From Patescibacteria group bacterium (GTDB lineage Bacteria; Patescibacteriota; UBA1384; CAJBMM01): 64,000 bases of DNA. Numbering within the stretch: the first letter of the stretch is position 1; every line of letters begins with the position of its first letter. The notes under the pieces were generated by a model that worked only from the letters and a program-made list of their open reading frames with translations, searched no databases and was not told where the DNA came from. Below, piece after piece: positions 24 through 42,710 of the stretch. The stretch is from contig JBAZWC010000001.1 of assembly GCA_041660565.1 (NCBI GenBank), forward strand, positions 302,481 to 366,480, in the 5' to 3' direction. A program made the position numbers and the translations under genes.

Positions 24-70
24 TCTTCAACAATTTCGGGGAAAGTTGGTTGGTCAAAGTGCTTTCGGTT
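24..70. repeat. 46-bp direct repeat copy A (4 mismatches to copy B); reads as a second copy of the 3' end of the hydrolase gene (encodes ...HFDQPTFPEIVEDLKSI* in one frame)
   Basis: tcttcaacaatttcggggaaagttggttggtcaaagtgctttcggtt vs 1074-1120 tcctcaacaatttcggggaaggtgggttggtcaaagtgctttcggtc. Confidence 0.7.
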
Positions 71-2182: not shown

Positions 2183-3016
2183 TTATTCCTTATCTTTAAT
2201 TTCTTTCTTCTTTGGCAAATAGTTCTCGTTAGTAATTACTTTTTTACCGGTTTCTTGTTCTAGCTCAATTCTAGCATTTTTGGCGATACCACCGCCTTTT
2301 ATACCAGCAATTTTATTTGGCTCAAATCCAGTGGCTTTATCTGTTTCGGCTATCTTACGGGTAGATAGCTCTGCCAGCGCGGTGAAAATTAGCTCGGCTT
2401 CAGACATATGATCACGCAGATTTTGTTTTGAAAGTCCTTTAATTTGTTTGTGTTTACCAACAGTTAGCCCGCTCCATTCTTGATGAATCACATTTGTTAG
2501 AATAGCAAATTCGCTTTGCTCTTCTATTCCATTATTTTTCCAGTAATCGGTTAGTTTATTTCTAGTTTCTTGCCCCATCATCCTTTGTTGAATCCATTTT
2601 TCACTCCGACCGAATCGTTGCCAGTTTTCTCTAGCGCGATTTATCGCTTTTTCCGGATCTTGAATTTCTTGGATTCTCTCGTAGCCAACTTTAGACAACC
2701 AGAGCTTAAACGGTTCTGCTTTAGGTGATGGGATCGACTGAATAATACGCAGAATAGCCTGGGTTGTGGCGCAATCCGTCAAGTATTTTTTTCCATCTGA
2801 CGATTCTAGTTTCAGTTGTCGACAAAGTGTCGACAACTCTACACCATCCTCTGAATTTACACGGATTTTCATTTTGAACCAATAGTCTCGCGCATTAACA
2901 CTGTTAGTTAGCGTCTCGACTACGTCAACCACTGAGAAATACCATACCGATTCCTTACTATCCCAGACTCGTCTAATTTTCTTGCCTTCGAATAACGCTA
3001 TTTCAAGATCGGTCAT
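2183..3016 (-). CDS. BRO-N domain / DinD-like (DNA-damage-inducible protein D family) protein
   Basis: N-terminal pattern ...IRRVWDSKESVWYFSVVDVVETL...ARDYW typical of BRO-N; DinD-like size (277 aa). Confidence 0.5.
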   Translation of the reverse strand: MTDLEIALFEGKKIRRVWDSKESVWYFSVVDVVETLTNSVNARDYWFKMKIRVNSEDGVELSTLCRQLKLESSDGKKYLTDCATTQAILRIIQSIPSPKAEPFKLWLSKVGYERIQEIQDPEKAINRARENWQRFGRSEKWIQQRMMGQETRNKLTDYWKNNGIEEQSEFAILTNVIHQEWSGLTVGKHKQIKGLSKQNLRDHMSEAELIFTALAELSTRKIAETDKATGFEPNKIAGIKGGGIAKNARIELEQETGKKVITNENYLPKKKEIKDKE

Positions 3017-3095
3017 TTTGTCTCCAGTCTATATATTATACACATCTATTATAATATCATTTGCGTAAAACTACCATACAAATACCGAATCGTCC

Positions 3096-3232
3096 GACAG
3101 ACGTCCCCGACATTATATTCGGGGATCCAGAAATAGACTTTTTCATAGACTGCCCCGAAGCGCGTTCGGGGTGGCTGGCGCCAGATTCTAGACGAAGTCT
3201 ACCCCGTGCTGTGCCACGGGGCGGGAATGACA
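3096..3232. repeat. cluster of truncated palindromic-repeat fragments (..gtccccgacattatattcggggatccag..; catagactg..; ..gcgggaatgaca) at left junction of GC-rich island
   Basis: Matches to repeat families at 8657, 9419, 21101, 41704. Confidence 0.55.
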
Positions 3233-3260
3233 CGAGGAGTGCCCGGGATAACATAAATTG

Positions 3261-3297
3261 ATAAAGAAAAGGCCCCGGGCACGGATGTGCTGGGGCC
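3261..3297 (-). terminator. rho-independent terminator (stem ggccccgggcac/gtgctggggcc, T-run on minus strand)
   Basis: GC hairpin followed by ttttctttat on coding strand, just downstream of stop at 3343. Confidence 0.6.
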
Positions 3298-3342
3298 TTC
3301 TTGGGGCGGGTAGGTTACGTGGACATCTCCGTCTACGACGGC

Positions 3343-3900
3343 CTAGTGCGTCTCCAACGCCGACGCGGGGTCGGTCTGGCCGCCCAGGTTGCCTGTGCCA
3401 GGCGCGCCTCCAGCGAAACCAAGCTGATCGGTTGCGACTGGCGGGTCGTCGGGCTCGGGTTCGCCGGTAGGGACCTCGTGGGTCAGACCGAAGATCTCCT
3501 CGAGCGTGTCGCCGGTTCCAGGCTCTTTGGGCTTGGGTTCGGGCTCGCCGGTCTCGGGCTCGGCCTTCTTGACGACCTCGTAGCCGAGTGTTCCCAGCGT
3601 GAAGGCCAGTGCGTCAATGCCCGACTTGATGCACTCGGGAACCACGCGCTCGGTGGTCCCATCCGCATTGACGATCAGACTGACGCTGCAGCCGGCGCCC
3701 TGCATCACCCACAGCCCGATCTGCTTGACCACTTCCTCGGCGGCCTTCGCGTTGCCGAAGTCGCCAACCGGATACTGCGTCTCGGTCACGTCGCCGCACG
3801 CCACCTCGGGAATAACGGCGTACACCACACCCCCTACTGCGACGGCCCGAACGACCTGGCGTACGTCAGCCACCAACCTTGGTGCGATCAAGTACGGCAT
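3343..3900 (-). CDS. hypothetical protein, GC-rich foreign-looking gene A (start MPYLIAPRL...), acidic Pro/Glu-rich C-terminus
   Basis: RBS GGGAGG-5nt-ATG, GC3-rich codons, own terminator; opposite-strand ORF 3301..3939 judged artifact. Confidence 0.45.
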   Translation of the reverse strand: MPYLIAPRLVADVRQVVRAVAVGGVVYAVIPEVACGDVTETQYPVGDFGNAKAAEEVVKQIGLWVMQGAGCSVSLIVNADGTTERVVPECIKSGIDALAFTLGTLGYEVVKKAEPETGEPEPKPKEPGTGDTLEEIFGLTHEVPTGEPEPDDPPVATDQLGFAGGAPGTGNLGGQTDPASALETH

Positions 3901-4041
3901 GTGCTTCCTCCCTGTGGAGTAACTCACAGATGTTTGTGAGCCAAGCCTGCTATTGGCTTGGGTTAGACAAGAAATACTTCTTTTCTAACCTAAACCTTAA
4001 GTAAAACTATTATTATATTGTTCAGTTTCTAAACTGGATGT

Positions 4042-4070
4042 ATTTTAGTAATTATTTATAGTTTTGTCAA
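4042..4070 (-). promoter_or_regulatory. sigma70-like promoter for gene A (TTGACA-17-TAAAAT) followed by ~150-nt leader with two small hairpins
   Basis: Read on minus strand in AT-rich spacer. Confidence 0.4.
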
Positions 4071-4129
4071 TACTTATTTATATTTTATGTGATGGGGTCG
4101 ATGGTTTTTGCATATTCCAAAGCACGGTA

Positions 4130-4166
4130 GTAATGAAAACGGCCGGGGCGCGGATGCGCCCCGACC
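4130..4166 (-). terminator. rho-independent terminator (ggccggggcgcggatgcgccccgacc + T-run), same family as 3271 and 4795
   Basis: Hairpin with conserved loop gGATGc, followed by gttttcattac on minus strand. Confidence 0.6.
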
Positions 4167-4187
4167 GATTGTCAGGCTTGGTGCCGG

Positions 4188-4700
4188 CTACATGCCGGCG
4201 GAGGCCTCAGCGTGTGAGTTGCCTCTGACGTTCACCTGCATCGTGAACGTCACAACGGTACCGCTGGTGTAGATATACACGTCAGCGGTACTTCCATCCA
4301 GGTACGAGTGTACCGCCGGGGTGGTGTACCCCGCGGCTAGCGCAACCCCAGCGCCCATGCATCCAGACGACGCGAATCCGTCATCGGCCTGGATGTTGCC
4401 CGAGCACCGACCACTTGCCGTGACATGGAGCGGCATTGGCGTGCCGGTGCCAATCCAGTACCACGTGGTGGTCGATCGGGCCGTGGCCACAGCAGACGAC
4501 AAGTTTGGGAAGTACCCCTCTGCGTAGAGGGTGTTCCCGCTGACCCAGACGTCAGCGAACTCCTTCGACTGGCTGGTGATGACCAGCCCGCTCGGGACGC
4601 ATGTCCAGAAACCGGTTGGCAGACCACCGCCAGACGCCTTAGCCGACGGGACAACAATCTGCCCCGTTGCCATCAGAAGTGCTACAACCAGTGGATACAT
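4188..4700 (-). CDS. small secreted hypothetical protein, GC-rich gene B (signal peptide MYPLVVALLMATGQIVVPSAKA; G/T/S/A-rich, 4 Cys)
   Basis: RBS GGAGG-6nt-ATG; N-terminal hydrophobic signal; own promoter and terminator. Confidence 0.5.
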   Translation of the reverse strand: MYPLVVALLMATGQIVVPSAKASGGGLPTGFWTCVPSGLVITSQSKEFADVWVSGNTLYAEGYFPNLSSAVATARSTTTWYWIGTGTPMPLHVTASGRCSGNIQADDGFASSGCMGAGVALAAGYTTPAVHSYLDGSTADVYIYTSGTVVTFTMQVNVRGNSHAEASAGM

Positions 4701-4748
4701 CTACGTCCTCCGTAGGGTTTTTGTACTGCATCCAGGCGTACACGGCAT

Positions 4749-4777
4749 ATATTAGCATAAGTTTTTAATTTTGTCAA
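4749..4777 (-). promoter_or_regulatory. sigma70-like promoter for gene B (TTGACA-17-TAATAT)
   Basis: Near-consensus hexamers in AT-rich spacer. Confidence 0.5.
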
Positions 4778-4784
4778 CATTTTT

Positions 4785-4821
4785 GCAACAAAAAGGGCCG
4801 AGGCGCAGATGCGCCCCGGCC
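4785..4821 (-). terminator. rho-independent terminator (gggccgaggcgcagatgcgccccggcc + T-run)
   Basis: Third member of the conserved terminator family. Confidence 0.6.
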
Positions 4822-4833
4822 ATTCGGGCTATG

Positions 4834-5613
4834 TTAGCTCGCGGTCAGAGTGAACAGGGATGTGCCCTCGGTGAAGTAGGCGGCGTCCGCAATATCCAAC
4901 ATCAGTAGCTGATCGCCACCACCCCTCACAACCACCACCCCCTCGTTCTGTCCTTTGGCTTGATTGGCTACAACGCGGGTTCCGGGCAGAATCACCTTGG
5001 CGTCTGCCGGAATAACGACGCCGGTGACGTAGCACCTGACAAACCAAAGGAATTCCAGTAGCCCACCGGGGATGACGCGTTTTGGGATGTGATTCCCATG
5101 CACTGCCACCGGAACGCCGAGGTTAACGGGCACGTCGTCCGTGGTGATGAAATGCGTGGACAGATCTGGCACAACTGAGGCGCAAGGCAACGATTCACCA
5201 GCTGTCGTAGCTGGCTCCCAGTTGATCCATGACTTGATGTTCGCCTGCGTCGGAGCAAGCCGCTGATCAGCCAGTGCCTGCTCGAACGGCTCGCACAGTC
5301 CAATACCCGAACCATTTTCAAGCATCCGCCGGACAAGTCTGGAATACGCGTCCGACCGTAGCAATAGGTCCACGTACACCCCCATCGACACCATCAATAC
5401 CACCGTACTGGGTAGTTTGACAGCACCATCATCGGATATGCTCAGCTGATTGGGATCCAGCTGATATTGCACGCCCCCGTTATTGCCAAGCACCCGCAGT
5501 AACGCGCTGATATCGAACTGGTGCGGGACCCGATGGGTGACGCATCGCACATCACAATCCGGCCGGCGCGTCACATAGCCGGCTGGCGTGTCGCTTAGCC
5601 TTATCGCTGGCAC
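4834..5613 (-). CDS. hypothetical protein, GC-rich gene C (GTG start, RBS GGAGGA)
   Basis: 259-aa ORF, GC-rich, own terminator; opposite-strand/alternative-frame ORFs judged artifacts. Confidence 0.4.
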   Translation of the reverse strand: MPAIRLSDTPAGYVTRRPDCDVRCVTHRVPHQFDISALLRVLGNNGGVQYQLDPNQLSISDDGAVKLPSTVVLMVSMGVYVDLLLRSDAYSRLVRRMLENGSGIGLCEPFEQALADQRLAPTQANIKSWINWEPATTAGESLPCASVVPDLSTHFITTDDVPVNLGVPVAVHGNHIPKRVIPGGLLEFLWFVRCYVTGVVIPADAKVILPGTRVVANQAKGQNEGVVVVRGGGDQLLMLDIADAAYFTEGTSLFTLTAS

Positions 5614-5935
5614 CTTGGTTCCTCCGTTGCGCTATCTAAGCGCGGTGTGAATGTACTGCCGCGTACATTAAATCACTTTTTGTCATAAAAGTCCACTAAA
5701 ATAAAGTAACGGTTCACAACAATATGAGTGTTCTCGTTCGAGGAGTTCGGAAAACGACGAGAACTATCTACAAATTAGTTCTCGCTACGCTCGAACAAGA
5801 AAGTCTGTTTGATAACTGTGCACTTTTATAAAATATAATCTGACAAGGGGTTGACAGAATTAAATCATATCTGTTATTATTAGTGCATCACGAGAGAGAA
5901 ACGAACTGGCAACTACGTGTTGCCTGTAACGCCTC

Positions 5936-6460
5936 TCATTTTTTGTATTCTAATTTCGCTTTTTCGTTCTCGATAAAGGTTTTGTACGATTGAAATTTCT
6001 TTAGTAATGATGATTCCGATTTGCGGTTTGGGATAACTACCCTAAGCAATTTATTTTGATCAATTAGATATTCGTACAGACATCTAAAATCACCATCACT
6101 AGAGACAATGACCGCTTTGTCATAATTTGGATATTGCAGCACCGCCGAGTGCAACACTAATTCGGCATCTATATTGCCTTTGGTTTTGCCTAATCTATCG
6201 GTGGTGGTGGGCTTGAACACTAATTCGTAGCCAAACGATCTAAGTTGGCTGTATAGTTGCTCGTTGTCTTCAATGTATCCAATGAATAGAAATGCTTTTG
6301 AGACCCGGAATTTATTAGAAAGATAAACGCGGAATTTGCGGAAATCCAGATGCCAACCGGTGTAAATCTTTCTACCGCGCTGGTTAATGACGTCTTTGCC
6401 CGTGCCTAAGTTTAGATTTTGACTGTCAATGAAGGCGTAGACGATTTGATGATTTTTCAT
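5936..6460 (-). CDS. NYN (LabA-like) domain protein; start taken at internal ATG overlapping obg stop (ATGA)
   Basis: VYAFIDSQNL...VIVSSDGDF motifs of NYN domain; translational coupling with obg. Confidence 0.6.
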   Translation of the reverse strand: MKNHQIVYAFIDSQNLNLGTGKDVINQRGRKIYTGWHLDFRKFRVYLSNKFRVSKAFLFIGYIEDNEQLYSQLRSFGYELVFKPTTTDRLGKTKGNIDAELVLHSAVLQYPNYDKAVIVSSDGDFRCLYEYLIDQNKLLRVVIPNRKSESSLLKKFQSYKTFIENEKAKLEYKK

Positions 6461-7503
6461 ATTTTGATTGCTTTGATTATTTGACGTTTGAGTTCGGTAA
6501 GACCTAAGCCGGTGGCGCAAGAGATAAACATAGCGTTTGGCATCTCTTTGGCCAGTTTCTTTTGATCTTTTTCCGGAATTGCATCAATTTTGTTGATGGC
6601 CACAATGCGTGGCTTTTTAAGTAAAGTGGAGTTGAATTGCTTGGCCTCGTTTTCGAGAGTTTTTAGGTTTGCTTTAACGTCTGCGTCTGTACCATCTAGA
6701 ATAAATAATAATAATTTTGTGCGGTTGATGTGACGCAGAAATTCAACTCCAAGACCCTTGCCGCTGGCCGCGCCTTCAATAATTCCGGGGATATCGGCGA
6801 TAACCAGGTGATTTCCATCAATATCTGCCACCCCAAGATTTGGCTCTAGGGTGGTAAACGGATAGTTGGCAATTTTTGGCCGGGCGTTGGTGGTTACCGA
6901 TAAAAAGGTAGATTTTCCAGCGTTTGGCAAGCCAACCAGACCAACATCGGCAATTAGTTGCAGCTCTAGGTCTAGATTAAATTGCTGGCCCAACATACCG
7001 GTTTTAGCCCAGTGCGGAGCTTGTTTTATACTGGTAGCAAAGTGCGCGTTACCCCAACCGCCACGGCCGCCTTTAGCGATGATTTCGGTTTGACCTTCGG
7101 TTAGGATTTCGTATTTTTTAGGAGCGTCATTCACGTGCAGGCGGGATTCTATGTCTTTTATATCTGGATTCCGGATCAAGTCCGGAATGACAGGTCGTGA
7201 TGCTTCGTCAACAACTGAGATGATTGTGCCGAGGGGAACATGAATAATGCAGTCTTCGCCGTTTTTACCGTGCATCTTTTTACCCATTCCGCCTTGACCG
7301 TTCTGTGCCTCGTACATCTTTTTTGATCTAAAATCGCTTAGCGTGTGTAGATCTCGTTTGCCCACAATAACCACGTCTCCCCCATTACCCCCATCACCCC
7401 CATCCGGGCCTCCGTTGGGAATATATTTCTCACGCCGAAAAGAGACGGCTCCATCGCCGCCATTACCAGATTGAACGCTAATTTCACATTGATCGATAAA
7501 CAT
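6457..7503 (-). CDS. obg: GTPase Obg (ObgE/CgtA), no C-terminal extension
   Basis: Gly-rich Obg fold N-terminus, GLPNAGKST G1 and DIPG motifs. Confidence 0.9.
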   Translation of the reverse strand: MFIDQCEISVQSGNGGDGAVSFRREKYIPNGGPDGGDGGNGGDVVIVGKRDLHTLSDFRSKKMYEAQNGQGGMGKKMHGKNGEDCIIHVPLGTIISVVDEASRPVIPDLIRNPDIKDIESRLHVNDAPKKYEILTEGQTEIIAKGGRGGWGNAHFATSIKQAPHWAKTGMLGQQFNLDLELQLIADVGLVGLPNAGKSTFLSVTTNARPKIANYPFTTLEPNLGVADIDGNHLVIADIPGIIEGAASGKGLGVEFLRHINRTKLLLFILDGTDADVKANLKTLENEAKQFNSTLLKKPRIVAINKIDAIPEKDQKKLAKEMPNAMFISCATGLGLTELKRQIIKAIKI

Positions 7504-9418: not shown

Positions 9419-9490
9419 GTCATTCCGGGCTCGACCCGGAATCTATGTAATTCTTTTATAGACTGGATTCCCGCCTTCGCGGGAATGACA
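9419..9490. repeat. hairpin repeat pair: GTCATTCCGGGCTCGACCCGGAATC + TTTATAGACTGGATTCCCGCCTTCGCGGGAATGACA
   Basis: Same units at 16210-16235, 37295-37372, 41704-41730, 62234-62268. Confidence 0.7.
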
Positions 9491-16235: not shown

Positions 16236-16249
16236 ATATAAATGAATCA

Positions 16250-16281
16250 CCCGCGCCGGCCATAAGGCTAGCGCGGGTAAC
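16250..16281 (-). terminator. GC-rich hairpin terminator (acccgcgccggccataaggctagcgcgggt)
   Basis: 8-bp GC stem directly downstream of stop at 16292, T/A-rich tail on minus strand. Confidence 0.45.
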
Positions 16282-16291
16282 TTGACAGTGA

Positions 16292-16579
16292 TCACGCGAC
16301 GATTTCGCGCTCGAGGACCTGCATTCCGTTGACGCGTCTACAGGGGTTGCACTTCAAGGCAAAGATCAACCCGCACGACGTACACTGGATTGGCCAGACA
16401 TGCCCACCATATCGAACGGCGTCTCGGGCATCGATCGTGAAGTCACCATGCTCGCAGCAGTAACCATCAGTGGACGAGTCAAGAATAATACGCTTGTCCT
16501 TCACGCCAGACTGGTGCACAACGATCTCTCTCAAAGCCATCACCCCCTTCAATGCGAAGAGTAAGTCTCTCTTGTTCAC
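16292..16579 (-). CDS. small Cys-rich hypothetical protein (CCEHGDF...CTSCG...CNPC) in a GC-rich mini-island
   Basis: 95-aa ORF, GC-rich relative to flanks. Confidence 0.3.
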   Translation of the reverse strand: MNKRDLLFALKGVMALREIVVHQSGVKDKRIILDSSTDGYCCEHGDFTIDARDAVRYGGHVWPIQCTSCGLIFALKCNPCRRVNGMQVLEREIVA

Positions 16580-16903
16580 TACGAACAGCTTTTGGCTAAC
16601 TAGGCGCTGGTGGACATCGCAGAGGTCGAATTCGGCTCAGCGTCCCGCCGGCTTCTGCCGCACTTCTTGCAATACGCGGCCGGGGTGAAGTGATTGGTGC
16701 CGTCGAACCGACACGTCCACGAGGTGGCGTCAACAAAAACGCCTGACCGCCTCGCAACAGAGGTTTCGACCAACCTAGCCGACTCGATTCCAACAAGGTA
16801 TGGTGTGCCCAATCCCGTACTCCTGGAGATTTGATAGCGATATTATAACAGATTATTTGATTTATTAAAAGGGCAACCCTGCAAATCTATCTGACTTACA
16901 GGG

Positions 16904-17098
16904 CTAAACGACATCCAGGTTGTCCCAATCTACAAAGCGCACCATAGCGCTTCTAAGCACAAAGCCACACCAACCGCACCGAATCTTGCTCCCTCCTCGT
17001 TTCTTGCGGACATGACCGCAATGGCAACATACGTGCTGCAAATCTTCTGGTTGGATGAAATCCTCAACCAGAACGACGTCAACGCACAGTTCGTCCAT
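16904..17098 (-). CDS. small zinc-ribbon-like hypothetical protein (VCCHCGH...CGWCG); the N-terminal extension in the ORF track is encoded by a repeat element
   Basis: Start set at MDELC; CxxC...CxxC. Confidence 0.3.
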   Translation of the reverse strand: MDELCVDVVLVEDFIQPEDLQHVCCHCGHVRKKRGGSKIRCGWCGFVLRSAMVRFVDWDNLDVV

Positions 17099-17119
17099 AA
17101 TCCGACCTCCAATAGGCGT

Positions 17120-17277
17120 TGTCATTTCGACCCTGCGAGCGTTGTCGAGCTGTTGGCTTCCTGCCCTCTTAGGGCGTAAGCCCGGAGGGAGAAATCTCAA
17201 AATGAATTTTGAAGAGATTCTTTCTCAGATTTCTCCACCGTGGTCGAGTTGCGACTCTCCCCGAGTCGAAATGACAG
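17120..17277. repeat. MITE-like element, family TGTCATTTCGAC...GGAGAAATCT..AGATTTCTCC...GTCGAAATGACAG (terminal inverted repeats ~13 bp), with a nested extra hairpin
   Basis: Full copies at 22372-22497 and 24029-24150; half copies at 36174-36236 and 40847-40908. Confidence 0.7.
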
Positions 17278-20172: not shown

Positions 20173-20209
20173 AAAAGGAAACCGCCCGGGTGGCGAACCA
20201 CCAAGGCGG
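20173..20209 (-). terminator. conserved cassette terminator ggaaaccgcccgggtggcgaaccaccaaggcgg + T-run (copy 1)
   Basis: Imperfect hairpin followed by tttcctttt on minus strand; identical copy at 20617-20655. Confidence 0.55.
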
Positions 20210-20221
20210 ACAGGCACCGGT

Positions 20222-20536
20222 CTAGTAGACCCGGGAGAACAACGGCTCGATAACTGCGACATACTCGCCAATAGGCAAAGCTCGAGGCATTACGGATCCC
20301 TTCAGCAACTGGGCAATGTTGTACACGATGCCCTCGATTTCCTCGCGGCCAAACTCCGACGCAACGTCTGAGGGTTCGACAACCAGAGTAAGTCGCACAT
20401 CTTTTCGACCAAATACCGGTTCTACCCTCTCGACGGCAAATGTCCGACAGGAAACATCCGCAATGTACCTCAATAACTCATCCGACGGAGTCCATTGATG
20501 CTCTCCGTCATCGTACCCAGACACTAATACTCGCAT
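20222..20536 (-). CDS. hypothetical protein, GC-rich cassette gene P1 (MRVLVSGYDDGE...)
   Basis: RBS GGGAGAC-ATG; conserved promoter box upstream and conserved terminator downstream. Confidence 0.4.
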   Translation of the reverse strand: MRVLVSGYDDGEHQWTPSDELLRYIADVSCRTFAVERVEPVFGRKDVRLTLVVEPSDVASEFGREEIEGIVYNIAQLLKGSVMPRALPIGEYVAVIEPLFSRVY

Positions 20537-20553
20537 CAATGTCTCCCATGAAC

Positions 20554-20595
20554 CATGATGGCATTAAGATACTATTTTAGAACATCTTTGTCCAG
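20554..20595 (-). promoter_or_regulatory. conserved 42-bp cassette promoter/5' box (catgatggcattaagatactattttagaacatctttgtccag; TGGACA-17-TATCTT on minus strand), copy 1
   Basis: Identical sequence at 21025-21066. Confidence 0.5.
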
Positions 20596-20616
20596 ATCAA
20601 GTCAGAATAACAATTA

Positions 20617-20655
20617 ATAAAGGAAACCGCCCGGGTGGCGAACCACCAAGGCGGA
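20617..20655 (-). terminator. conserved cassette terminator, copy 2
   Basis: Same hairpin as 20173-20209 followed by tttcctttatt. Confidence 0.55.
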
Positions 20656-20683
20656 GTGAACCAGGAAGAACGTTGCCGAAGTC

Positions 20684-21007
20684 CTAGGAGAATGTCGCTG
20701 AGAACATCTTTGCGGTGGTTGCCACATCGATGGTGGTATAGGGCGAGAATTGCTTGGTGTAGTCTTGCACCAGCTCTCCAACACGCTTGATCTGCAGATC
20801 GACGTTTTGAAGACTACCCAGCTCATCCCACATGTCCGGATTAATGATCCCGAACACATTTACGCTACCACCTGCTGGTGTCTCGCCGTAGCAGATACCG
20901 CCTATCACCACTGAATCGACCAGCGAACACGTGCGCAAAATGGTCTGCACAAGATCACCGACGCCGTCTTGGCGTTCGCTGGGAATTCCATCAATGACTA
21001 CGATCAT
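20684..21007 (-). CDS. hypothetical protein, GC-rich cassette gene P2 (MIVVIDGIPSERQ...), weakly similar N-terminus to P1
   Basis: RBS GGAGGG-5nt-ATG; same flanks as P1. Confidence 0.4.
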   Translation of the reverse strand: MIVVIDGIPSERQDGVGDLVQTILRTCSLVDSVVIGGICYGETPAGGSVNVFGIINPDMWDELGSLQNVDLQIKRVGELVQDYTKQFSPYTTIDVATTAKMFSATFS

Positions 21008-21024
21008 AGTAGCCCTCCGGCACA

Positions 21025-21066
21025 GCATGATGGCATTAAGATACTATTTTAGAACATCTTTGTCCA
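21025..21066 (-). promoter_or_regulatory. conserved cassette promoter/5' box, copy 2
   Basis: Identical to 20554-20595. Confidence 0.5.
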
Positions 21067-21100
21067 GTTTTGTTTATGTGAATTTAATAATTATTATATT

Positions 21101-22371: not shown

Positions 22372-22497
22372 TGTCATTTCGACCCCTCGAGCGTTGTCGA
22401 GAGGTTGGAGAAATCTCGAAAAAAAACTGGGAGGGATTCTTTCTTAAGATTTCTCCACCGTGGTCGTGTTGACACACTTCCCGAGTCGAAATGACAG
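22372..22497. repeat. MITE-like element (TGTCATTTCGAC ... GTCGAAATGACAG), full copy
   Basis: Terminal inverted repeats plus internal hairpin GGAGAAATCT/AGATTTCTCC. Confidence 0.75.
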
Positions 22498-23976: not shown

Positions 23977-24028
23977 ATAAAGATATATTACCACTTTTAG
24001 CGCTAGAGATAAAGGATGCTCACGTTAT

Positions 24029-24150
24029 GTCATTTCGACCCTAGGAGATTGTCAAATCGACTATGTCGGAGAAATCTGAGAAAGAATCCCTTCAATTTTT
24101 TAAGGAGATTTCTCCAACCGTTCGTGGAAGCTCACGGGGTCGAAATGACA
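24029..24150. repeat. MITE-like element, full copy, in promoter region of sugar transferase gene
   Basis: Same family as 22372-22497. Confidence 0.75.
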
Positions 24151-24220
24151 AAGTAGAAGTAACACCCAGAAAATCCACGGACGAGCCGTGGATTTTCTAT
24201 TTAATAATTAGATTTAATTA

Positions 24221-26045: not shown

Positions 26046-26081
26046 AAAAAAGAACTAGGGCGTTTCTTGCAAGAAACGCCC
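26046..26081 (-). terminator. terminator hairpin gggcgtttcttgcaagaaacgccc + T-run
   Basis: Perfect 11-bp stem; tagttctttttt on minus strand. Confidence 0.6.
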
Positions 26082-26126
26082 TACGTTGGCACAGAGCCAT
26101 CAGTCACAACCACTACGCGATCATCC

Positions 26127-26576
26127 CTAGGCGCAGTTTGTCGAAACAGACAACCAGCCGTGCATCTGGCCGGCTAGTTGACGGAAGAACTTCCGACATC
26201 TTTCGACGTCTACCCGCTGCGCTGTCCCGTTGGCGAGAGTATTCAGAGTCTCCTGAAACTGGATGAACAGGCGCGCGAAATCGTCGGGGGTATTCACCCC
26301 AAAGTCGTCCGGATGGGCGTTAACTACTCCCAGCGCACACCCACAGGCATCAAGCATCTCCACGGTTGGCGCGAACTTGGCGCCGGGATCAACGAACATC
26401 GAGTGCGCTTGCACGACATTCACAATCATCGCTCGCGCTTGGTTTACCGCCCCCTGCTGATCGGGAGATACTTGGCCGCTATTGAGGTATTGACCCAATG
26501 CACCAGAGGCCTTTGACGACATGAAGCCGTAGCGAAACGCTGTCGAACGGTCAAGGCTCATCATTGCGCTAGCCAT
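26127..26576 (-). CDS. hypothetical protein (MASAMMSLDRST...), mid/high-GC single-gene insert
   Basis: RBS GGGGGT-5nt-ATG; own promoter and terminator. Confidence 0.4.
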   Translation of the reverse strand: MASAMMSLDRSTAFRYGFMSSKASGALGQYLNSGQVSPDQQGAVNQARAMIVNVVQAHSMFVDPGAKFAPTVEMLDACGCALGVVNAHPDDFGVNTPDDFARLFIQFQETLNTLANGTAQRVDVERCRKFFRQLAGQMHGWLSVSTNCA

Positions 26577-26660
26577 CTTGGACCCCCAGTCGTAGCAACG
26601 TCGTCCCACACGCCCAGTGCGGCACGACTCTACCTTTGTAATGGTACTCCCCTTGACATC

Positions 26661-26688
26661 ATATTAGTTCATAGACAATCATTGTCAA
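26661..26688 (-). promoter_or_regulatory. promoter TTGACA-16-TAATAT, flanked by inverted repeat CTTGACA..23 bp..TGTCAAG (possible operator)
   Basis: Read on minus strand upstream of 26127..26576. Confidence 0.5.
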
Positions 26689-26695
26689 GCATTTA

Positions 26696-31474: not shown

Positions 31475-32846
31475 CTGAGCCCTCCATTTCCAAATCGATT
31501 AACCGGTTTAACTCAATGGCGTATTCAAACGGCAATTCTTTGGTAAACTGGCTAATAAATCCGTTGACGATCAGAGACGCGGCCGCACTTTCTGACAATC
31601 CTCGACTAGTTAGATAGAAAAGTTGAGCGTCACCAATCTTGCTCACCGACGCTTCGTGCTCCACAAACGCCGTTGGTTCGGCAACCTTGATGGTGGGGTA
31701 CGTATCTGATCGTGATCGATCGTCTAACAGCAATGCATCGCATCGAACTCGGTTCTTAACTCCGCTATACCCCCTACCAACGTTTACCGTCCCGCGAAAG
31801 CTGGTCCGGCCGCCATCTTTTGAAATCGATTTGGAAATTATTGTTGATGAGGTGTTGTTTGCCAAATGGATTGCCTTGGCGCCGGCATCTTGGTACTGAT
31901 CTTTGCCTGCATACGCAATGGACAAAATATCACCTTTTGCCCCGTTACCTAACAAATACACGCTCGGATATTTCATCGTTAACCGCGAGCCCAAATTGCC
32001 ATCCACCCACTCTACAAACGCATTTTCATACACAAATGCCCGTTTTGTCACCAAGTTGTAGATGTTTTTGGACCAATTCTGCACTGTGGTATAGCGAATA
32101 TGTGAACCGGGCAACGCGATTAGTTCCACCACCGCGGCGTGAAGCGAATACGTGGAATATACCGGCGCGGTGCACCCTTCTATATAATGAACATCACTTC
32201 CTTCATCTGCGATGATTAACGTGCGCTCAAACTGGCCAAAGCTTTCCGCGTTAATGCGAAAATATGCCTGCAACGGCAAGCGCACTTTGGTATTTTTAGG
32301 CACGTAGATAAAACTGCCTCCCGACCACACCGCCGAATTTAGGGCGGAAAATTTGTTGTCATTTGCCGGAACAACAGACGCAAAATATTTTTTGACGATT
32401 TCGGGATATTCTCTTAAACCCGTGTCCATATCGCAAAAGATCACTCCCTGGTCATCTAACTCTTTTTTGATGTGATGATAAACCACTTCGGATTCAAATT
32501 GCGCCGATACGCCGGCCAGAAATTGGCGTTCCGCTTGCGGAATACCAATTTTATCAAATGTTTGCTTGATATCGTCTGGAACATCGTCCCAACTGTTTTG
32601 CGGCTTGTCAGATGTGGACAAATAATAGGTGATTTGGTCAAAATTAATCTCGTCAATTAGTTTACTTTGTGCCCAAATTGGGAGTTTTTTGGCTAAAAAT
32701 TGAGTGTAAGATTTAAGCCGAAAATCTAGCATCCATTTTGGCTCATTTTTGCGACGCGAAATAGCCTTAACCGTTTCGGCGGTAAGTCCTTTTGGTGTTT
32801 GGTATTTAACTGCGCTTTTCATGGTTCCCTTGTCATTCCGGGTCAA
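31467..32846 (-). CDS. sufB: Fe-S cluster assembly protein SufB
   Basis: Strong SufB signature throughout (…[20 protein letters not shown]…). Confidence 0.9.
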
Positions 32847-32887
32847 TTGGCTTAATTGGATTGATTGGACTAATTGGAAAATTTAAA

Positions 32888-33616
32888 TTATTTATTAATT
32901 TCACTAAACCCAGTGCTATTTACCTTCTGCGATAAATCCGCACCACCGATTCTGACAATCGCTCCGTCTTGCATTACCAACACCCGATCAACTTTGACTA
33001 AATCTAGCAAGCGTTGGTAGTGGGTAATTATAATAATTGCTCGATCAGGTGCACGGTATTGGTTAATAACGTCGGCAACCAGATGAAGTGCATCTACGTC
33101 TAACCCGGAGTCAATTTCGTCTAAGATCAATAATTTTGGCTGCAATACCAATGCTTGCGCCAATTCCAACCGCTTTTTCTCGCCTCCAGACATCCCGTCG
33201 TTTACCGCACGATTAGCGTAGCTTTGATCTAAACCAACCGAGTTAAGCGCCGAAATTAAATTTGACCGAAAACTGGCGGCAGTTACTTTAAGATGAGGAT
33301 GATTTTTAACCGCGGCCCGCAGCATTGAAGCCACGGTTAGCCCCGGAATTTCTATGGGATGTTGCGATGCCACATATATCCCCAGTGCAGATCGTTTGTC
33401 TGCACTTAATTTGGTGAGGTCTTTATGATTAAAAATAATTCGCCCAGCAGAACAGTCGTAATTTGGCGAGCCCATAATGGAAGATACCAGCGTGCTTTTG
33501 CCTGAACCGTTTGGCCCCATTATCGCCACCACTTCGCCTGCTTCAATTTCAAGCGACAGATTCTCAATAATTTTTTTATCACTGGCGTTTACAGATAAAT
33601 TATTTATTTTTAGCAT
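32888..33616 (-). CDS. sufC: Fe-S cluster assembly ATPase SufC
   Basis: Walker A GPNGSGKST, ABC signature, Walker B LLILDE. Confidence 0.9.
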   Translation of the reverse strand: MLKINNLSVNASDKKIIENLSLEIEAGEVVAIMGPNGSGKSTLVSSIMGSPNYDCSAGRIIFNHKDLTKLSADKRSALGIYVASQHPIEIPGLTVASMLRAAVKNHPHLKVTAASFRSNLISALNSVGLDQSYANRAVNDGMSGGEKKRLELAQALVLQPKLLILDEIDSGLDVDALHLVADVINQYRAPDRAIIIITHYQRLLDLVKVDRVLVMQDGAIVRIGGADLSQKVNSTGFSEINK

Positions 33617-33640
33617 TATTCAACTTTCCAATTCATCCAA

Positions 33641-34018
33641 TCAATCCAATTTATCCAATTTGATTGAATGTAATTTTTCAATAATTTCCGCGTTTATTTT
33701 TCTCACTTGAGGAGATGTCTGACACCCTTTATTTTGACAACTGGCGCAATCGGTCAACGCAATCGGCCCATCAACGGCGGTGATTATTTGGGCAAAACTG
33801 ATGGTTTTTGGATCAACTGCCACCCAATATCCCCCTCCCACACCTTCTTTACTCGAAATCAATCCAGCCTGACGCAATTTGTTAGCTAATTGTCGCAATA
33901 TTGATAACGGCAAGTTCGCTTCCCCTGCCACCACATTTAAGCTAATTGGATGGCTAGAATTTGATAATTTAGACATCAGCACCAGCGCATAATCTTGTTT
34001 TTTGGAGAGTTTCAACAT
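33641..34018 (-). CDS. Rrf2 family transcriptional regulator (IscR/SufR-like); C-terminus KLDKLD* encoded by ATTGGA repeat
   Basis: Rrf2 wHTH N-terminus MLKLSKKQDYALVLM..., C-terminal Cys triad. Confidence 0.75.
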   Translation of the reverse strand: MLKLSKKQDYALVLMSKLSNSSHPISLNVVAGEANLPLSILRQLANKLRQAGLISSKEGVGGGYWVAVDPKTISFAQIITAVDGPIALTDCASCQNKGCQTSPQVRKINAEIIEKLHSIKLDKLD

Positions 34019-34194
34019 ATCTAATACCTATTTGTATCTAGTTTTACAGATGTAATAGACGCTTGTCAAATTGGTCTGATTGGATTAATTGGAGCAATTG
34101 GATTGATTGGATTTGAATTTGTTTCGTATTTCGAATTTTGTGCTTAGTGCTTTGTTGACTTGCGCCAACTCGATCCTTAATTCATACTGATATT

Positions 34195-36173: not shown

Positions 36174-36236
36174 TGTCATTTCGACTCGGGGAGAGTGTCA
36201 ACTCGACCACAGTGGAGAAACCTCAAGAAAGAATCC
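36174..36236. repeat. half copy of MITE-like element (TGTCATTTCGAC...GGAGAAAC..AGAATCC)
   Basis: Aligns to left half of 22372-22497. Confidence 0.6.
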
Positions 36237-36878
36237 ATTCCAGTGAAACACATAAATAATAGCTATTTTGTGGTAATTACTTTATTTGTTCTCGCCGTTG
36301 CGGCCGTAATTGCCATAGTCCTAACGTCAGATCATCAGCAGTCTGCCGAAGCCACTATTTGGCGAGTTGATGCCCCGACAAAAGGCAAAACAAGCGCCAA
36401 AGTTAAGATGGTGGAATTTGGCGATTTTGCTTGCGTCGCCTGCGCCGATTTCAGGGCGATAAAAAACGCCCTGCTAGAACAATATCCAAACGACCTACAA
36501 TATCAATTTCGCTTTTTCCCCACCGCTAATCATCCCAATTCGTACTCGGCGGCGGTAACCGCCGAAATTGCCAACCAGCACGACCAATTTTGGGTAATGT
36601 CTGACCTCTTATACGAAAACCATGCAAACTGGCAAGATTCAACCAACTTTCGCAGCATTTTTGCCAACTTTGCAGTGTTAGTGGGAATTGATCAGAGTAC
36701 ATTTACCAGTGATTTTGACAAACTAAAAACAGCTGACGATGTGGTAGATAAAGACGTGGCAGACGGCAATGCACTGTCGATTACCGAAACGCCGGCTATT
36801 TTTCTAAATGACACCCGTTACGGCGGCACCTTAACTCAGACCGATTTGGCCAAAGCAATAGATTCTCTATTAAAATAG
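36195..36878 (+). CDS. DsbA-like thiol:disulfide oxidoreductase, membrane-anchored (CVAC active site); annotated N-terminus lies in the repeat, true start probably GTG near 36223
   Basis: Thioredoxin-fold CxxC FGDFACVACADF after a TM helix. Confidence 0.65.
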   Translation: MSTRPQWRNLKKESIPVKHINNSYFVVITLFVLAVAAVIAIVLTSDHQQSAEATIWRVDAPTKGKTSAKVKMVEFGDFACVACADFRAIKNALLEQYPNDLQYQFRFFPTANHPNSYSAAVTAEIANQHDQFWVMSDLLYENHANWQDSTNFRSIFANFAVLVGIDQSTFTSDFDKLKTADDVVDKDVADGNALSITETPAIFLNDTRYGGTLTQTDLAKAIDSLLK

Positions 36879-36909
36879 TCTTTTTCTAACTCCAATTGGA
36901 TAAATTGGA

Positions 36910-41824: not shown

Positions 41825-41903
41825 GGGCATAACGTCGTTGACTCTATTTGAAGTAAGTGGTACAACTAACTTTGGAAACTTAATCGCTTCACGGGGGTGA
41901 GTG

Positions 41904-42221
41904 ATGGAGATTGCGCTGGTTGAGGTGTACCCACCCGATAACTGTCTTGGTCGGGTGGCAGCGTTCAGAATAGATCAAGAATCGGATACGTTGGAGGGAA
42001 TCCAACTGGCTCAAGACTATACTCGCGAACATGGCACAGATAAGGATCGCGGCCGTGGCCTGCAAGGCCCGCAGAACGGATTCGTGGTGATGGTCGCCAG
42101 AGACGAATATGGGCTTTGGGTGCGCATTAACACCGGGGAGATTGACCCGGACAATGTCTCGCAACTCAAAGCGCATGTTTGCAAGGACTTCTCTTATGCT
42201 TTGAACGGCACTAGCCCGTAG
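41904..42221 (+). CDS. hypothetical protein, GC-rich, paralog 1 (…YPPDNC…LAQDYTREHG…QNGF…)
   Basis: RBS GGGGGTGAGTG-ATG; ~30% identity to next gene; opposite-strand ORF judged artifact. Confidence 0.4.
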   Translation: MEIALVEVYPPDNCLGRVAAFRIDQESDTLEGIQLAQDYTREHGTDKDRGRGLQGPQNGFVVMVARDEYGLWVRINTGEIDPDNVSQLKAHVCKDFSYALNGTSP

Positions 42222-42298
42222 GCCAACCGCCTGCGGGTTGAACTTTGCCATAAAAAATGGTATAACTAACACAACGCTAGCACGACGGAGGGAAACAA

Positions 42299-42652
42299 TT
42301 GAGGATCACGGAGGTTGTGCTGTACCCGACGATGCCTTGCCGTCGCCTGGCATCGTTGAAGTTTGGCCCGTTATCCGATCTGACCGAAGCTGTCTGCCTG
42401 GCGCAGATCTTCACCAGAAGGCATGGCAATGGCGACTTCCTGCCAGATGGACAGATAGGCGTCCAGAACGGGTTCCAGATTCTGCCGTACGAGTCAATAA
42501 ATCGTGCCTGCTCAGTGGTCATATACTCAACAAATGACACCTGTAGGAAACAGTGCAAGGCACTTATCAGCGGCCTTCGAACATCAGGCATTGTCAAAAC
42601 GCCAACCGTCCGCAACGAGATCGAGATCAACAACCCACCATACTGGGCTTAA
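42299..42652 (+). CDS. hypothetical protein, GC-rich, paralog 2 (TTG start; …YPTMPC…LAQIFTRRHG…QNGF…)
   Basis: RBS GGAGGG-6nt-TTG; paralogy on plus-strand frame. Confidence 0.4.
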   Translation: MRITEVVLYPTMPCRRLASLKFGPLSDLTEAVCLAQIFTRRHGNGDFLPDGQIGVQNGFQILPYESINRACSVVIYSTNDTCRKQCKALISGLRTSGIVKTPTVRNEIEINNPPYWA

Positions 42653-42710
42653 ACCGCCCAACTCACGCCCGTGGAGCCATCCGGCTCTGCGGGTTGCCTT
42701 TTTTGAGACC

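What the first reader, a model, noticed from the sequence alone, without database searches (positions are those of the whole stretch)
3057..5640. GC-rich three-gene island with family-related terminators inside a low-GC genome
Between the BRO-N gene and the NYN gene lie three minus-strand ORFs (3343-3900, 4188-4700, 4834-5613). Their GC content looks ~60-65% with GC-rich third positions, against ~40-48% in neighbouring housekeeping genes. Each has a strong GGAGG-type RBS. Each is followed by a GC hairpin terminator of one family (ggccccgggcacggatgtgctggggcc / ggccggggcgcggatgcgccccgacc / gggccgaggcgcagatgcgccccggcc) with compensatory stem changes and a conserved loop. Genes A and B are preceded by very AT-rich spacers with near-consensus promoters (TTGACA-17-TAAAAT, TTGACA-17-TAATAT). 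Gene B encodes a signal-peptide protein. The left edge (3096-3232) is a pile-up of truncated palindromic-repeat fragments. The pattern suggests horizontally acquired cassettes, possibly from a high-GC donor such as an actinobacterial host if this is an epibiont. The cassettes appear to have been duplicated or diversified and placed under native-style promoters.
Basis: partly seen in the sequence, partly recalled or inferred. Interest (0 to 1): 0.75.

Follow-up and report, generated by a model that had tools for sequence, protein, structure and literature searches.

The report
GC-rich orphan-gene cassettes in a Patescibacteria chromosome
Three unrelated genes with no relatives anywhere, much richer in G+C than the rest of this small Patescibacteria genome, sit side by side as self-contained units (ribosome-binding site, gene and stop hairpin each; two with a clear promoter); they are probably foreign DNA of unknown source, not shown to come from an actinobacterial host.

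Summary
Window 3250-5640 carries three minus-strand ORFs: A 3343-3900, B 4188-4700, C 4834-5613. Their GC is 0.58-0.66 and GC3 0.65-0.80. The 37 core genes have GC3 0.42±0.04, so z = 5.6-9.1. Codon usage, amino-acid composition and codon periodicity all mark them as coding and atypical. Each has a GGAGG ribosome-binding site and a strong hairpin plus T-run terminator. T_B and T_C are 87% identical; T_A is 71% identical to T_B. A and B have near-consensus promoters in AT-rich spacers; C does not. An independent assembly reproduces both junctions.

A, B and C hit only themselves in 5.8 billion protein clusters. C also found nothing in a full HMMER scan of 1.84 billion representatives. Phage, plasmid, PDB, Pfam, PHROG, NCBIfam and PADLOC searches gave nothing. 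The three proteins are unrelated to each other, so no donor and no duplication are shown.

The island is one of at least five such islets, about 9% of the window. These islets hold all four of the window's perfect hairpin terminators and six of its seven GGAGG sites. One islet has two units with identical promoter and terminator modules around unrelated ORFs.

Best reading: moron-like, horizontally acquired orphan cassettes. Protein functions are unknown.

The parts
3096..3232 (.). Left border. A composite of fragments of the genome's own REP/MITE-like palindromic repeats, with hairpins at 3105-3124, 3153-3171 and 3202-3221. It ends in CGGGAATGACA.
   Evidence: the motif occurs 7 times against 0.36 expected., I24: 3106-3133 is 100% complementary to 41751-41778; alignment with copies at 8640, 21085, 41690, 9430 and 62225.
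3260..3301 (-). T_A, the intrinsic terminator of gene A. The stem is 4+6 bp plus flanking AAGG/CCUU pairs, with an internal loop, an AUCC loop and the tail UUUUCUUUAUC.
   Evidence: family D1.: -23.0 kcal/mol, z -6.1.
3343..3900 (-). Gene A, 185 aa, an orphan. It has a folded-looking N-terminal part of about 115 aa and an acidic Pro/Glu/Gly-rich tail. GC 0.658, GC3 0.80.
   Evidence: No homologue. AF2 pLDDT 57.6. No fold match.
3901..4036 (-). 5' leader of A, about 135 nt. It contains the GGAGG site at 3907-3911 and three hairpins, one of which overlaps the RBS.
   Evidence: I6, arms 3955-3973 and 3978-3996.: -42 kcal/mol, z -4.5. No Rfam family.
4042..4070 (-). Promoter P_A: TTGACA-17-TAAAAT in a spacer of 40% GC.
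   Evidence: 11 of 12 matches. (spacer GC 0.404).
4130..4167 (-). T_B, the intrinsic terminator of gene B. A 12-bp stem with 11 G-C pairs, an AUCC loop and the tail UUUUCAUUAC.
   Evidence: -27.8 kcal/mol, z -6.4.
4188..4700 (-). Gene B, 170 aa, an orphan. It is rich in Gly, Ala, Thr and Ser. The N-terminus is hydrophobic with AKA|S, a possible signal peptide. GC 0.614, GC3 0.73. The GGAGG site is at 4707-4711.
   Evidence: No homologue.
4749..4777 (-). Promoter P_B: TTGACA-17-TAATAT with TG. It starts 10 nt after the T-run of T_C.
   Evidence: 10 of 12 matches. D3, 71% identical to the P_A region.
4786..4821 (-). T_C, the intrinsic terminator of gene C. An 11-bp stem with 10 G-C pairs, an AUCU loop and the tail CUUUUUGUUG.
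   Evidence: -25.6 kcal/mol, z -4.1; 87% identical to T_B.
4834..5613 (-). Gene C, 259 aa from a GTG start, an orphan. GC 0.578, GC3 0.65. The GGAGG site is at 5621-5625. Gene callers disagree on the start: 118, 238 or 259 aa.
   Evidence: Searches returned only the protein itself. One search gives the three gene calls. AF2 pLDDT 31.
5626..5935 (-). Region upstream of C, 40% GC. It has no convincing minus-strand promoter. There is a palindrome AATGTAC-N6-GTACATT at about 5650-5670. On the + strand there is a promoter-like site (5851-5880) and a hairpin (5908-5924).
16240..17120 (-). Related islet I2 between gyrB and a DUF4012 gene. It holds three small GC-rich ORFs (17098..16904, 16812..16600, 16579..16292; the first and third carry paired-Cys (CxxC-type) motifs, the second a single CxxC) and is flanked by REP/MITE-like repeats.
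   Evidence: GC3 z 3.2-7.2.
20174..21067 (-). Related islet I3. Two units (ORFs 21007..20684 and 20536..20222) have 100% identical promoter modules (44 nt) and terminator modules (about 37 nt) around unrelated ORFs.
   Evidence: GC3 z 4.6 and 3.6.
26050..26690 (-). Related islet I4. A single unit: TTGACA-16-TAATAT, a 149-aa GC-rich ORF (26576..26127) and a 12-bp hairpin with a T-run (26056-26083).
41838..42706 (+). Related islet I5, next to two tRNA-Met genes and a pile-up of REP-like repeats. Its two ORFs are paralogues (41904-42221 and 42299-42652, 38% identical). The second ends in a 12-bp hairpin with the same AUCC loop and a T-run.

Best explanation
Window 3250-5640 is a genuine compositional island in the chromosome of a poorly sampled Patescibacteria bacterium, probably related to Saccharibacteria. 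It consists of three unrelated, lineage-unique protein-coding genes inserted head to tail. They lie in a variable stretch between a BRO-N/PDC-S13 gene and NYN-obg.

Each gene is an autonomous transcription unit. A sigma-70-type promoter sits in AT-rich DNA (shown by consensus for A and B, unclear for C). The GC-rich segment begins after the -10 box and carries a canonical GGAGG ribosome-binding site and the ORF. It ends in a strong G+C hairpin followed by a U-tract that should stop transcription before the next unit.

The units therefore work like phage 'morons'. They are foreign genes expressed independently of, and insulated from, their neighbours.

The most likely history is horizontal acquisition from one or more unsampled sources of about 58-66% GC. 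Entry was probably by DNA uptake and recombination at repeat-rich intergenic hot spots. This step is inferred, not shown.

The island is one of at least five such islets in the 64 kb, so this is a genome-wide habit rather than a single event. What the proteins do is not known. B may be exported. A has a folded domain plus a disordered acidic tail.
For: Composition, codon usage and amino-acid usage all lie far outside the core range. The GC1/GC2/GC3 pattern (0.70/0.47/0.80 for A, 0.64/0.44/0.65 for C) is what genes equilibrated in a 58-65% GC genome show; this rests on established knowledge (Muto & Osawa), not a tool result.

The genes are coding. Codon periodicity is significant. Each ORF exactly fills the space between its GGAGG site and its terminator.

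The units are autonomous. The terminators are unidirectional.

The island is not an assembly artefact. An independent Logan contig of 4382 bp equals window 2810-7191 base for base and spans both junctions.

The signals are foreign in character. Full GGAGG occurs in 3/3 island genes and 6/11 islet genes, against 1/37 core genes. All 4 perfect GC hairpins of at least 8 bp with a T-rich tail in the 64 kb lie in islets. In the native stretch that was scanned (47-64 kb), terminator-like sites are not above chance.

The same architecture recurs at four more loci between housekeeping genes.

Genomic islands and HGT covering up to 13% of genome length are reported for Patescibacteria, with competence and pilus genes proposed for DNA uptake (PMC12455944). 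The defining features of a moron are its own promoter and terminator and a GC content different from its neighbours (PMC2920897).
Against: No donor or homologue was found for any of the three genes, so foreign origin rests on composition alone. No relative is close enough to show that the island is absent elsewhere or to measure selection.

No integrase, transposase, tRNA or target duplication marks this island.

The surroundings are not a prophage, so 'moron' is an analogy only. C lacks a recognisable promoter. The promoters are consensus matches without expression data.

Orphan and acquired genes are usually AT-richer than their genome (PMC3514957). These are the opposite.
Confidence: 0.65

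Rival explanations
1. One reading: the cassettes were captured from the genome, or a phage or plasmid, of a high-GC actinobacterial host of an epibiotic Saccharibacterium.
For: GC of 58-66% and amino-acid usage are compatible with a high-GC donor. The best Obg matches include Saccharibacteria MAGs. Cultivated members of that group are epibionts of Actinobacteria (own knowledge; abstracts listed).
Against: A, B and C have no homologue in 5.8 billion clusters, which include NCBI genomes. C has none in 1.84 billion representatives by full HMMER. There are none in 50,697 phage or 72,556 plasmid records. GC3 of 0.65-0.80 is below what I would expect for typical Actinobacteria (own knowledge). In aquifer Patescibacteria, Actinomycetota were donors in 1 inferred event, against 109 within the phylum (PMC12455944). 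The host of this organism is unknown.
Confidence: 0.1
2. A modular capture or exchange system. Conserved promoter and terminator modules serve as docking sites or homology arms, and unrelated RBS-ORF payloads are inserted or swapped between them. This would be functionally parallel to integron cassettes or to Neisseria minimal mobile elements.
For: In islet I3, 44-nt promoter modules and about 37-nt terminator modules are 100% identical around unrelated ORFs. In the A/B/C island, T_B and T_C are 87% identical and P_A and P_B 71%, around unrelated proteins. The compositional break falls between the -10 box and the RBS and at the hairpin. Four of the five islets abut REP-like elements.
Against: No recombinase was found in the window. 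The hairpins are 26-28 nt and lack the attC R'/R'' boxes (inspection). Only two or three copies of each module are visible. Gene conversion, or selection on operator and terminator function, could keep the modules alike. The rest of the 516-kb contig could not be read.
Confidence: 0.12
3. Native, fast-evolving lineage-specific genes whose GC was raised locally, for example by GC-biased gene conversion at recombination hot spots. No horizontal transfer is involved.
For: There are no donors. Islet GC values form a continuum of 0.51-0.66. The islets sit in repeat-rich hot spots. The lineage is so poorly sampled that lineage-specific genes would look like orphans.
Against: The shift reaches first and second codon positions and amino-acid usage beyond the whole core range. 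Ribosome-binding sites and terminators are also of a non-native type. The boundaries are sharp, with AT-rich spacers of 40% GC between the units.
Confidence: 0.08
4. An artefact: either a chimeric assembly or bin contamination, or GC-rich non-coding DNA in which long ORFs arise by chance.
For: The data come from a single MAG and a single sample. GC-rich DNA has few stop codons, and A's antisense strand is also open (3301-3939). Gene callers disagree on C.
Against: A second assembler gives the identical sequence across both junctions. Five separate islets each sit in an intergenic position with correctly oriented promoter, RBS and terminator. Frame-specific GC periodicity is significant (p <= 0.0005). 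By hand calculation from base composition, random ORFs of these lengths have probabilities of about 1e-2 (A), 6e-3 (B) and 1e-4 (C).
Confidence: 0.05

Closest known systems
Phage morons (Hendrix; Juhala et al.), as summarised in PMC2920897
   Same: A single extra gene inserted between other genes. It has its own promoter and factor-independent terminator, a G+C content different from its neighbours, often no known function, and it clusters at insertion hot spots.
   Different: Here the carrier is a chromosomal backbone of housekeeping genes (obg, gyrAB, suf, lepA), not a phage or prophage. The units are GC-richer than their surroundings. Several units share related promoter and terminator modules. 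Presence or absence among relatives could not be shown.
Integron gene cassettes and CALIN arrays
   Same: A co-oriented tandem array of mostly orphan ORFs of atypical composition. Each ORF is followed by a related imperfect palindrome, and each carries its own ribosome-binding site.
   Different: The hairpins are 26-28 nt perfect terminator stems with U-tracts, not 55-140-nt attC sites with R''/L''/L'/R' boxes. Each unit has its own promoter. No IntI-type recombinase is present in the window.
Genomic islands and HGT in Patescibacteria (PMC12455944)
   Same: Compositionally detected islands in small CPR genomes. Up to 13% of genome length is attributed to HGT, and uptake by competence or pili is proposed. 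The neighbour here belongs to the BRO family, which that paper also lists among transferred genes.
   Different: The islets here are one to three genes long, scattered, without homologues anywhere, GC-richer, and built from complete promoter-RBS-ORF-terminator units.
Neisseria minimal mobile elements and dRS3/NIME-flanked islets (own knowledge)
   Same: Whole-gene cassettes lie between conserved chromosomal genes in a naturally transformable organism. They are associated with short palindromic repeat arrays of the ATTCCC-N-GGGAAT type, which also occur here (41707-41729, 9466-9489).
   Different: The definition requires different cassettes at the same site in different strains.

Membership tests
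Phage moron | Inserted between genes of a phage or prophage genome | tested here: not met
   The flanks are Fic, a hydrolase, GNAT and BRO-N on one side and NYN, Obg, CHAP-LysM, Doc and IF-2 on the other. No phage structural or replication genes and no integrase occur among any ORF of at least 150 aa in the window. Only BRO-N has phage relatives.
Phage moron | Own promoter | tested here: inconclusive
   A and B have 11/12 and 10/12 consensus matches in the correct place and orientation. C has none. There are no expression data.
Phage moron | Own factor-independent terminator | tested here: met
   All three genes have one: -23 to -27.8 kcal/mol hairpins with T-runs on the coding strand only.
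Phage moron | Nucleotide composition different from neighbouring genes | tested here: met
   GC3 z = 5.6-9.1 against 37 core genes.
Phage moron | Variably present among related genomes | not testable with these tools
   No close relative exists. The best Obg match is 58% identical. NYN relatives are not syntenic. Protein clusters hold only this genome.
Integron cassette array / CALIN | attC site after each ORF (55-140 nt, R''/L''/L'/R' boxes, GTTRRRY at the junction) | tested here: not met
   The hairpins are 26-28 nt with 4-nt loops. No GTTRRRY or RYYYAAC is at their borders, by inspection. No attC covariance model was available.
Integron cassette array / CALIN | Integron integrase (IntI) adjacent | tested here: not met
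   No tyrosine recombinase was found among ORFs of at least 150 aa in the 64-kb window. CALINs lack one by definition.
Integron cassette array / CALIN | Promoterless, co-oriented cassettes | tested here: not met
   The units are co-oriented, but A and B have their own near-consensus promoters and each unit ends in a terminator.
Horizontally acquired genomic island | Atypical composition and codon usage | tested here: met
Horizontally acquired genomic island | Mobility marks: tRNA site, integrase, flanking direct repeats | tested here: not met
   None are present at 3057-5640. Islet I5 does abut two tRNA-Met genes.
Horizontally acquired genomic island | Homologues in a donor lineage; absence in sister genomes | tested here: not met
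   No homologues were found. Sister genomes are unavailable.
Rho-independent terminator | G+C-rich stem-loop directly followed by a U-tract | tested here: met
Sec signal peptide (gene B) | Basic n-region, hydrophobic h-region, AxA cleavage site | tested here: inconclusive
   The h-region (Kyte-Doolittle 1.6 over residues 4-22) and AKA|S are present. There is no K or R in the n-region. No dedicated predictor was available.

The most novel reading that the evidence does not exclude
This genome uses reusable promoter and terminator modules, and the REP-like hairpins next to them, as a platform that captures or exchanges foreign RBS-ORF payloads without an integron integrase. That would be a previously undescribed gene-capture system in a CPR bacterium. 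It would explain why unrelated GC-rich orphan ORFs sit between identical (islet I3) or related (A/B/C) regulatory modules.
Probability: 0.1. Interest if true: 0.8.

Novelty: new variant of a known kind. Interest (0 to 1): 0.5.

Why it matters
Patescibacteria have tiny genomes and depend on other cells, so how they gain new genes is an open question. In this window about 9% of a housekeeping stretch consists of ready-to-express orphan genes. Their composition, ribosome-binding sites and terminators differ from the native ones.

If the units are foreign, they point to a gene pool that 15 billion public proteins do not cover. They also run against the usual rule that acquired and orphan genes are AT-rich.

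Related or identical regulatory modules around unrelated ORFs hint at a modular way of installing genes. This could be tested with strain-resolved metagenomes.

On the practical side, standard gene callers mis-start these genes: C was called at 118, 238 and 259 aa.

Tried and rejected
Homology:
- Pfam, PHROGs, NCBIfam and PADLOC on A, B and C gave nothing below E = 0.03. The best hit was DUF6167 at E = 0.063 for A, far below its cut-off.
- All three word-indexed protein searches returned only the query itself. So did the full HMMER scan for C.
- IMG/VR pattern scans, tblastn against phages and plasmids, and PDB sequences gave no hit.

Structure:
- Single-sequence AlphaFold failed for C (pLDDT 31) and was weak for A (57.6).
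- Foldseek of the A model against the PDB gave nothing below E = 0.2. The afdb50 library was unavailable.

Synteny:
- The Obg scan of GTDB genomes found no close relative.
- The NYN scan of metagenomes found relatives up to 75% identical, but in other contexts and without GC-rich neighbours.
- tblastn of all islet proteins against the loci then held (L001-L115) found only the query genes themselves, plus the E/F paralogue pair within the window.

Terminator hairpin as a donor tag: no match in IMG/VR or in the fetched loci.

RNA: Rfam found only three tRNAs in the window, and nothing credible in the island at E <= 1.

Covariation in the terminators is not significant with 4 sequences.

Extending beyond the window failed. 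Only short Logan contigs are served.

Ideas rejected:
- Integron attC sites: wrong size, no boxes.
- Xer/dif-type sites: the arms are pure G+C palindromes with a 4-nt spacer.
- Tandem duplication of one gene: the proteins are unrelated.
- De novo birth from REP pile-ups: no similarity to the repeats beyond the left edge, and strong codon periodicity.

Full report
**1. What is there**

The window has 44.4% GC. Between the BRO-N gene (2183-3016) and the NYN gene (5936-6520), five consecutive 500-nt windows reach 0.54-0.60 GC. Both flanks stay at 0.37-0.44.

Three minus-strand ORFs fill this stretch: A 3343-3900 (185 aa), B 4188-4700 (170 aa) and C 4834-5613 (259 aa).
- Their GC is 0.658, 0.614 and 0.578.
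- GC at codon positions 1/2/3 is 0.70/0.47/0.80, 0.54/0.57/0.73 and 0.64/0.44/0.65.
- The spacers between them fall back to 0.40-0.48.

Against 37 core ORFs (GC3 0.419±0.042, maximum 0.480), the three genes lie 9.1, 7.5 and 5.6 standard deviations away. Their synonymous-codon likelihood under the core model is 4.3-5.1 standard deviations low.

Amino-acid usage is displaced beyond the whole core range. GARP is 0.29-0.35 against 0.22±0.03. FYMINK is 0.15-0.18 against 0.29±0.035.

The positional GC periodicity is significant in the called frames (p <= 0.0005).

**2. Anatomy of the units**

- Ribosome-binding sites. Each ORF is preceded by GGAGG at 6-7 nt.
- Terminators. Each ORF is followed by a G+C hairpin and a T-run on the coding strand only. 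T_B and T_C have 12- and 11-bp stems. T_A has a 4+6-bp stem with an internal loop. Folding energies are -23 to -27.8 kcal/mol.
- Terminator family. The three hairpins form one repeat family. T_C is 87% and T_A 71% identical to T_B over 31 nt. The loops are AUCC, AUCC and AUCU. Three stem positions differ on both sides, but with so few sequences this is not statistically meaningful. The case for relatedness rests on sequence identity.
- Promoters. A and B have TTGACA-17-TAAAAT and TTGACA-17-TAATAT in the AT-rich spacers. P_B starts only about 10 nt after the T-run of T_C.
- Gene C has no convincing promoter.
- Gene A has a 135-nt leader that is strongly structured (-42 kcal/mol, z -4.5).
- Left edge (3096-3232). 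It is made of fragments of the genome's own palindromic repeats. A 28-nt stretch is perfectly complementary to 41751-41778. The ...TAGACTG...GGGAATGACA parts match copies at 9.4, 41.7 and 62.2 kb.

**3. Is it real?**

An independent Logan assembly of run SRR18595301 gives a 4382-bp contig identical to window 2810-7191. It spans both junctions. NCBI, JGI and Logan all call genes here but disagree on C's start: 118, 238 and 259 aa. That is typical for genes whose composition does not fit the genome's model.

**4. Where do the genes come from?**

Nothing was found.
- Each of A, B and C hits only itself among 5.8 billion protein clusters.
- C also hits only itself in a word-index-free HMMER scan of 1.84 billion representatives.
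- Pfam, PHROGs, NCBIfam and PADLOC gave nothing.
- IMG/VR (43-45), 50,697 phage genomes (46-48), 72,556 plasmids and PDB sequences gave nothing.
- The three proteins are unrelated to each other.
- Single-sequence structure prediction was uninformative.

No actinobacterial or other donor is supported, and the units are not duplicates of one gene.

The GC1/GC2/GC3 pattern and the amino-acid shift are what genes equilibrated in 58-65% GC genomes look like. This is inference from the known relation between genomic GC and codon-position GC. It favours a foreign origin over a recent local rise in GC.

**5. Comparative context**

The organism is annotated as a 'Patescibacteria group bacterium'. Its Obg is at best 58% identical to any GTDB species representative, a Saccharibacteria MAG. 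Every protein cluster I looked up, even LepA and Obg, holds sequences from this genome only.

NYN relatives from metagenomes (up to 75% identical) sit in other gene contexts without GC-rich neighbours. Synteny and selection therefore cannot be tested with these data.

In the 58% relative, the CHAP-LysM gene upstream of obg appears to be conserved. This rests on my reading of the ORF order and translation; no alignment was run. The DNA downstream of obg differs. It carries its own small, GC-richer unit (0.52 against 0.35-0.44) with a TTGACA/TATAAT promoter and a hairpin. This suggests that the position downstream of obg is variable in this group.

**6. The island is not alone**

Four more islets in the window have the same build:
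- 16.24-17.12 kb: three small ORFs, the first and third with paired-Cys (CxxC-type) motifs.
- 20.17-21.07 kb: two ORFs.
- 26.05-26.69 kb: one ORF.
- 41.84-42.71 kb: two paralogous ORFs next to two tRNA-Met genes.

All lie between housekeeping genes: gyrB, a glycosyltransferase, a cysteine desulfurase, queA, lepA. Together they make up about 9% of the window.

They hold all four perfect hairpins (at least 8 bp, G+C-rich) with a T-rich tail in the 64 kb. In the native stretch that was scanned (47-64 kb), terminator-like sites are no more frequent than in shuffles.

Full GGAGG sites occur in 6 of 11 islet genes but in 1 of 37 core genes (p = 2e-4). The foreign-looking DNA thus seems to begin between the -10 box and the ribosome-binding site and to end at the hairpin.

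In the 20-21 kb islet, two adjacent units have 100% identical 44-nt promoter modules and about 37-nt terminator modules around unrelated ORFs. This is the same pattern that the A/B/C island shows in more diverged form.

Four of the five islets abut REP/MITE-like elements ending in GGGGATGACA or GGAATGACA. No integrase or transposase was found among the window's ORFs of at least 150 aa.

**7. Mechanism**

- Shown: three coding, compositionally alien orphan genes, each with its own ribosome-binding site and terminator, two with near-consensus promoters, in tandem, in a verified assembly.
- Inferred: each is transcribed on its own and insulated from its neighbours, as phage morons are (features cited from PMC2920897).
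- Inferred: they entered by horizontal transfer. Islands and DNA-uptake genes are documented for Patescibacteria (PMC12455944).
- Inferred: repeat-rich intergenic sites act as hot spots.
- Not known: the donor, the integration mechanism, and the proteins' functions. B may be secreted, but its n-region lacks a basic residue.

**8. Comparison with known systems and novelty**

The units work like morons but fail the membership test, because the carrier is not a phage.

They resemble integron cassettes in being co-oriented orphan ORFs followed by related palindromes. They fail on attC structure, on being promoterless and on the integrase.

They fit 'genomic islets from HGT' by composition only.

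Three things are unusual:
- The direction of the bias. These genes are GC-richer, whereas orphans are normally AT-richer (PMC3514957).
- The complete absence of homologues.
- Related or identical regulatory modules around unrelated payloads.

I rate this a new variant of a known kind, of moderate interest. There is a small chance (about 0.1) that the modules reflect a real, undescribed capture or exchange mechanism.

Noticed in passing
window 20174-21067 (minus strand): Two adjacent small-gene units share a 100% identical 44-nt promoter module (21024-21067 and 20552-20595) and a 100% identical terminator module of about 37 nt (20619-20655 and 20174-20210). The 5'UTR, RBS and ORF between the modules are unrelated (BLASTP E = 16).
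   Followed up: partly
window 16240-17120; 26050-26690; 41838-42706: Three further GC-rich orphan islets with the same promoter / RBS / ORF / hairpin-plus-T-run build, lying between housekeeping genes. The 41.9-42.65 kb pair are paralogues (38% identical over 63 aa) and sit next to two tRNA-Met genes.
   Followed up: partly
window 42713-42792, 49652-49755, 50917-51027, 51605-51711, 52838-52943, 56347-56464, 57000-57121; also 32845-32893, 33619-33661, 34065-34117, 36890-36942: Intergenic arrays of 9-nt periodic repeats, TTAGGGNNN paired with NNNCCCTAA, and a second type AATTGGNNN. They form long inverted repeats after many native genes. They may be the genome's native terminators or protein-binding sites.
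   Followed up: no
window 17120-17277, 22372-22497, 24028-24151, 36174-36247, 40847-40920: A MITE-like repeat family with TGTCATTTCGAC...GTCGAAATGACA termini. A second family, GTCATTCCCGC-N4-GCGGGAATCC, occurs at 9449-9489, 41704-41744 and 62235-62266. The last copy lies inside the 2284-aa Laminin_G_3 surface-protein ORF.
   Followed up: partly
window 2183-3016: The BRO-N gene next to the island matches the PADLOC candidate defence family PDC-S13 (E = 1.8e-121) and phrog_15286 (E = 1.9e-93). Its only phage-database relatives are 4-7-kb 'Bacteriophage sp.' contigs from human faecal viromes.
   Followed up: partly
window 3901-4036 (minus strand): The 135-nt leader of gene A is strongly structured (-42 kcal/mol, z -4.5), with a hairpin overlapping the GGAGG site. 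It may be a cis-regulatory element. It matches no Rfam family.
   Followed up: partly
window 5851-5945 (+ strand): Between C and NYN there is a near-consensus extended -10 promoter (TTGACA-18-TATTAT with TG) facing away from both genes. A hairpin (5908-5924) and a T-run follow it. This may be a small antisense or intergenic RNA.
   Followed up: no
window 24-69 and 1074-1119: A 46-nt direct repeat (93% identical). One copy is the 3' end of the alpha/beta-hydrolase gene and the other lies just past the Fic gene. It looks like a remnant of a duplicated or rearranged gene in the accessory left flank.
   Followed up: no
L002 2480-3030 (Saccharibacteria MAG CAZQEC010000042.1): In the closest available relative (Obg 58% identical), the position just downstream of obg holds a different small gene on the opposite strand. 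Its GC is 0.52 against 0.35-0.44 for the neighbours. It has TTGACA/TATAAT signals and a hairpin terminator, so it is a possible analogous islet.
   Followed up: partly
window 4834-5613: Three annotation pipelines give three different lengths for gene C (NCBI 118 aa, JGI 238 aa, Logan 259 aa). Only the 259-aa GTG start has the GGAGG site.
   Followed up: yes
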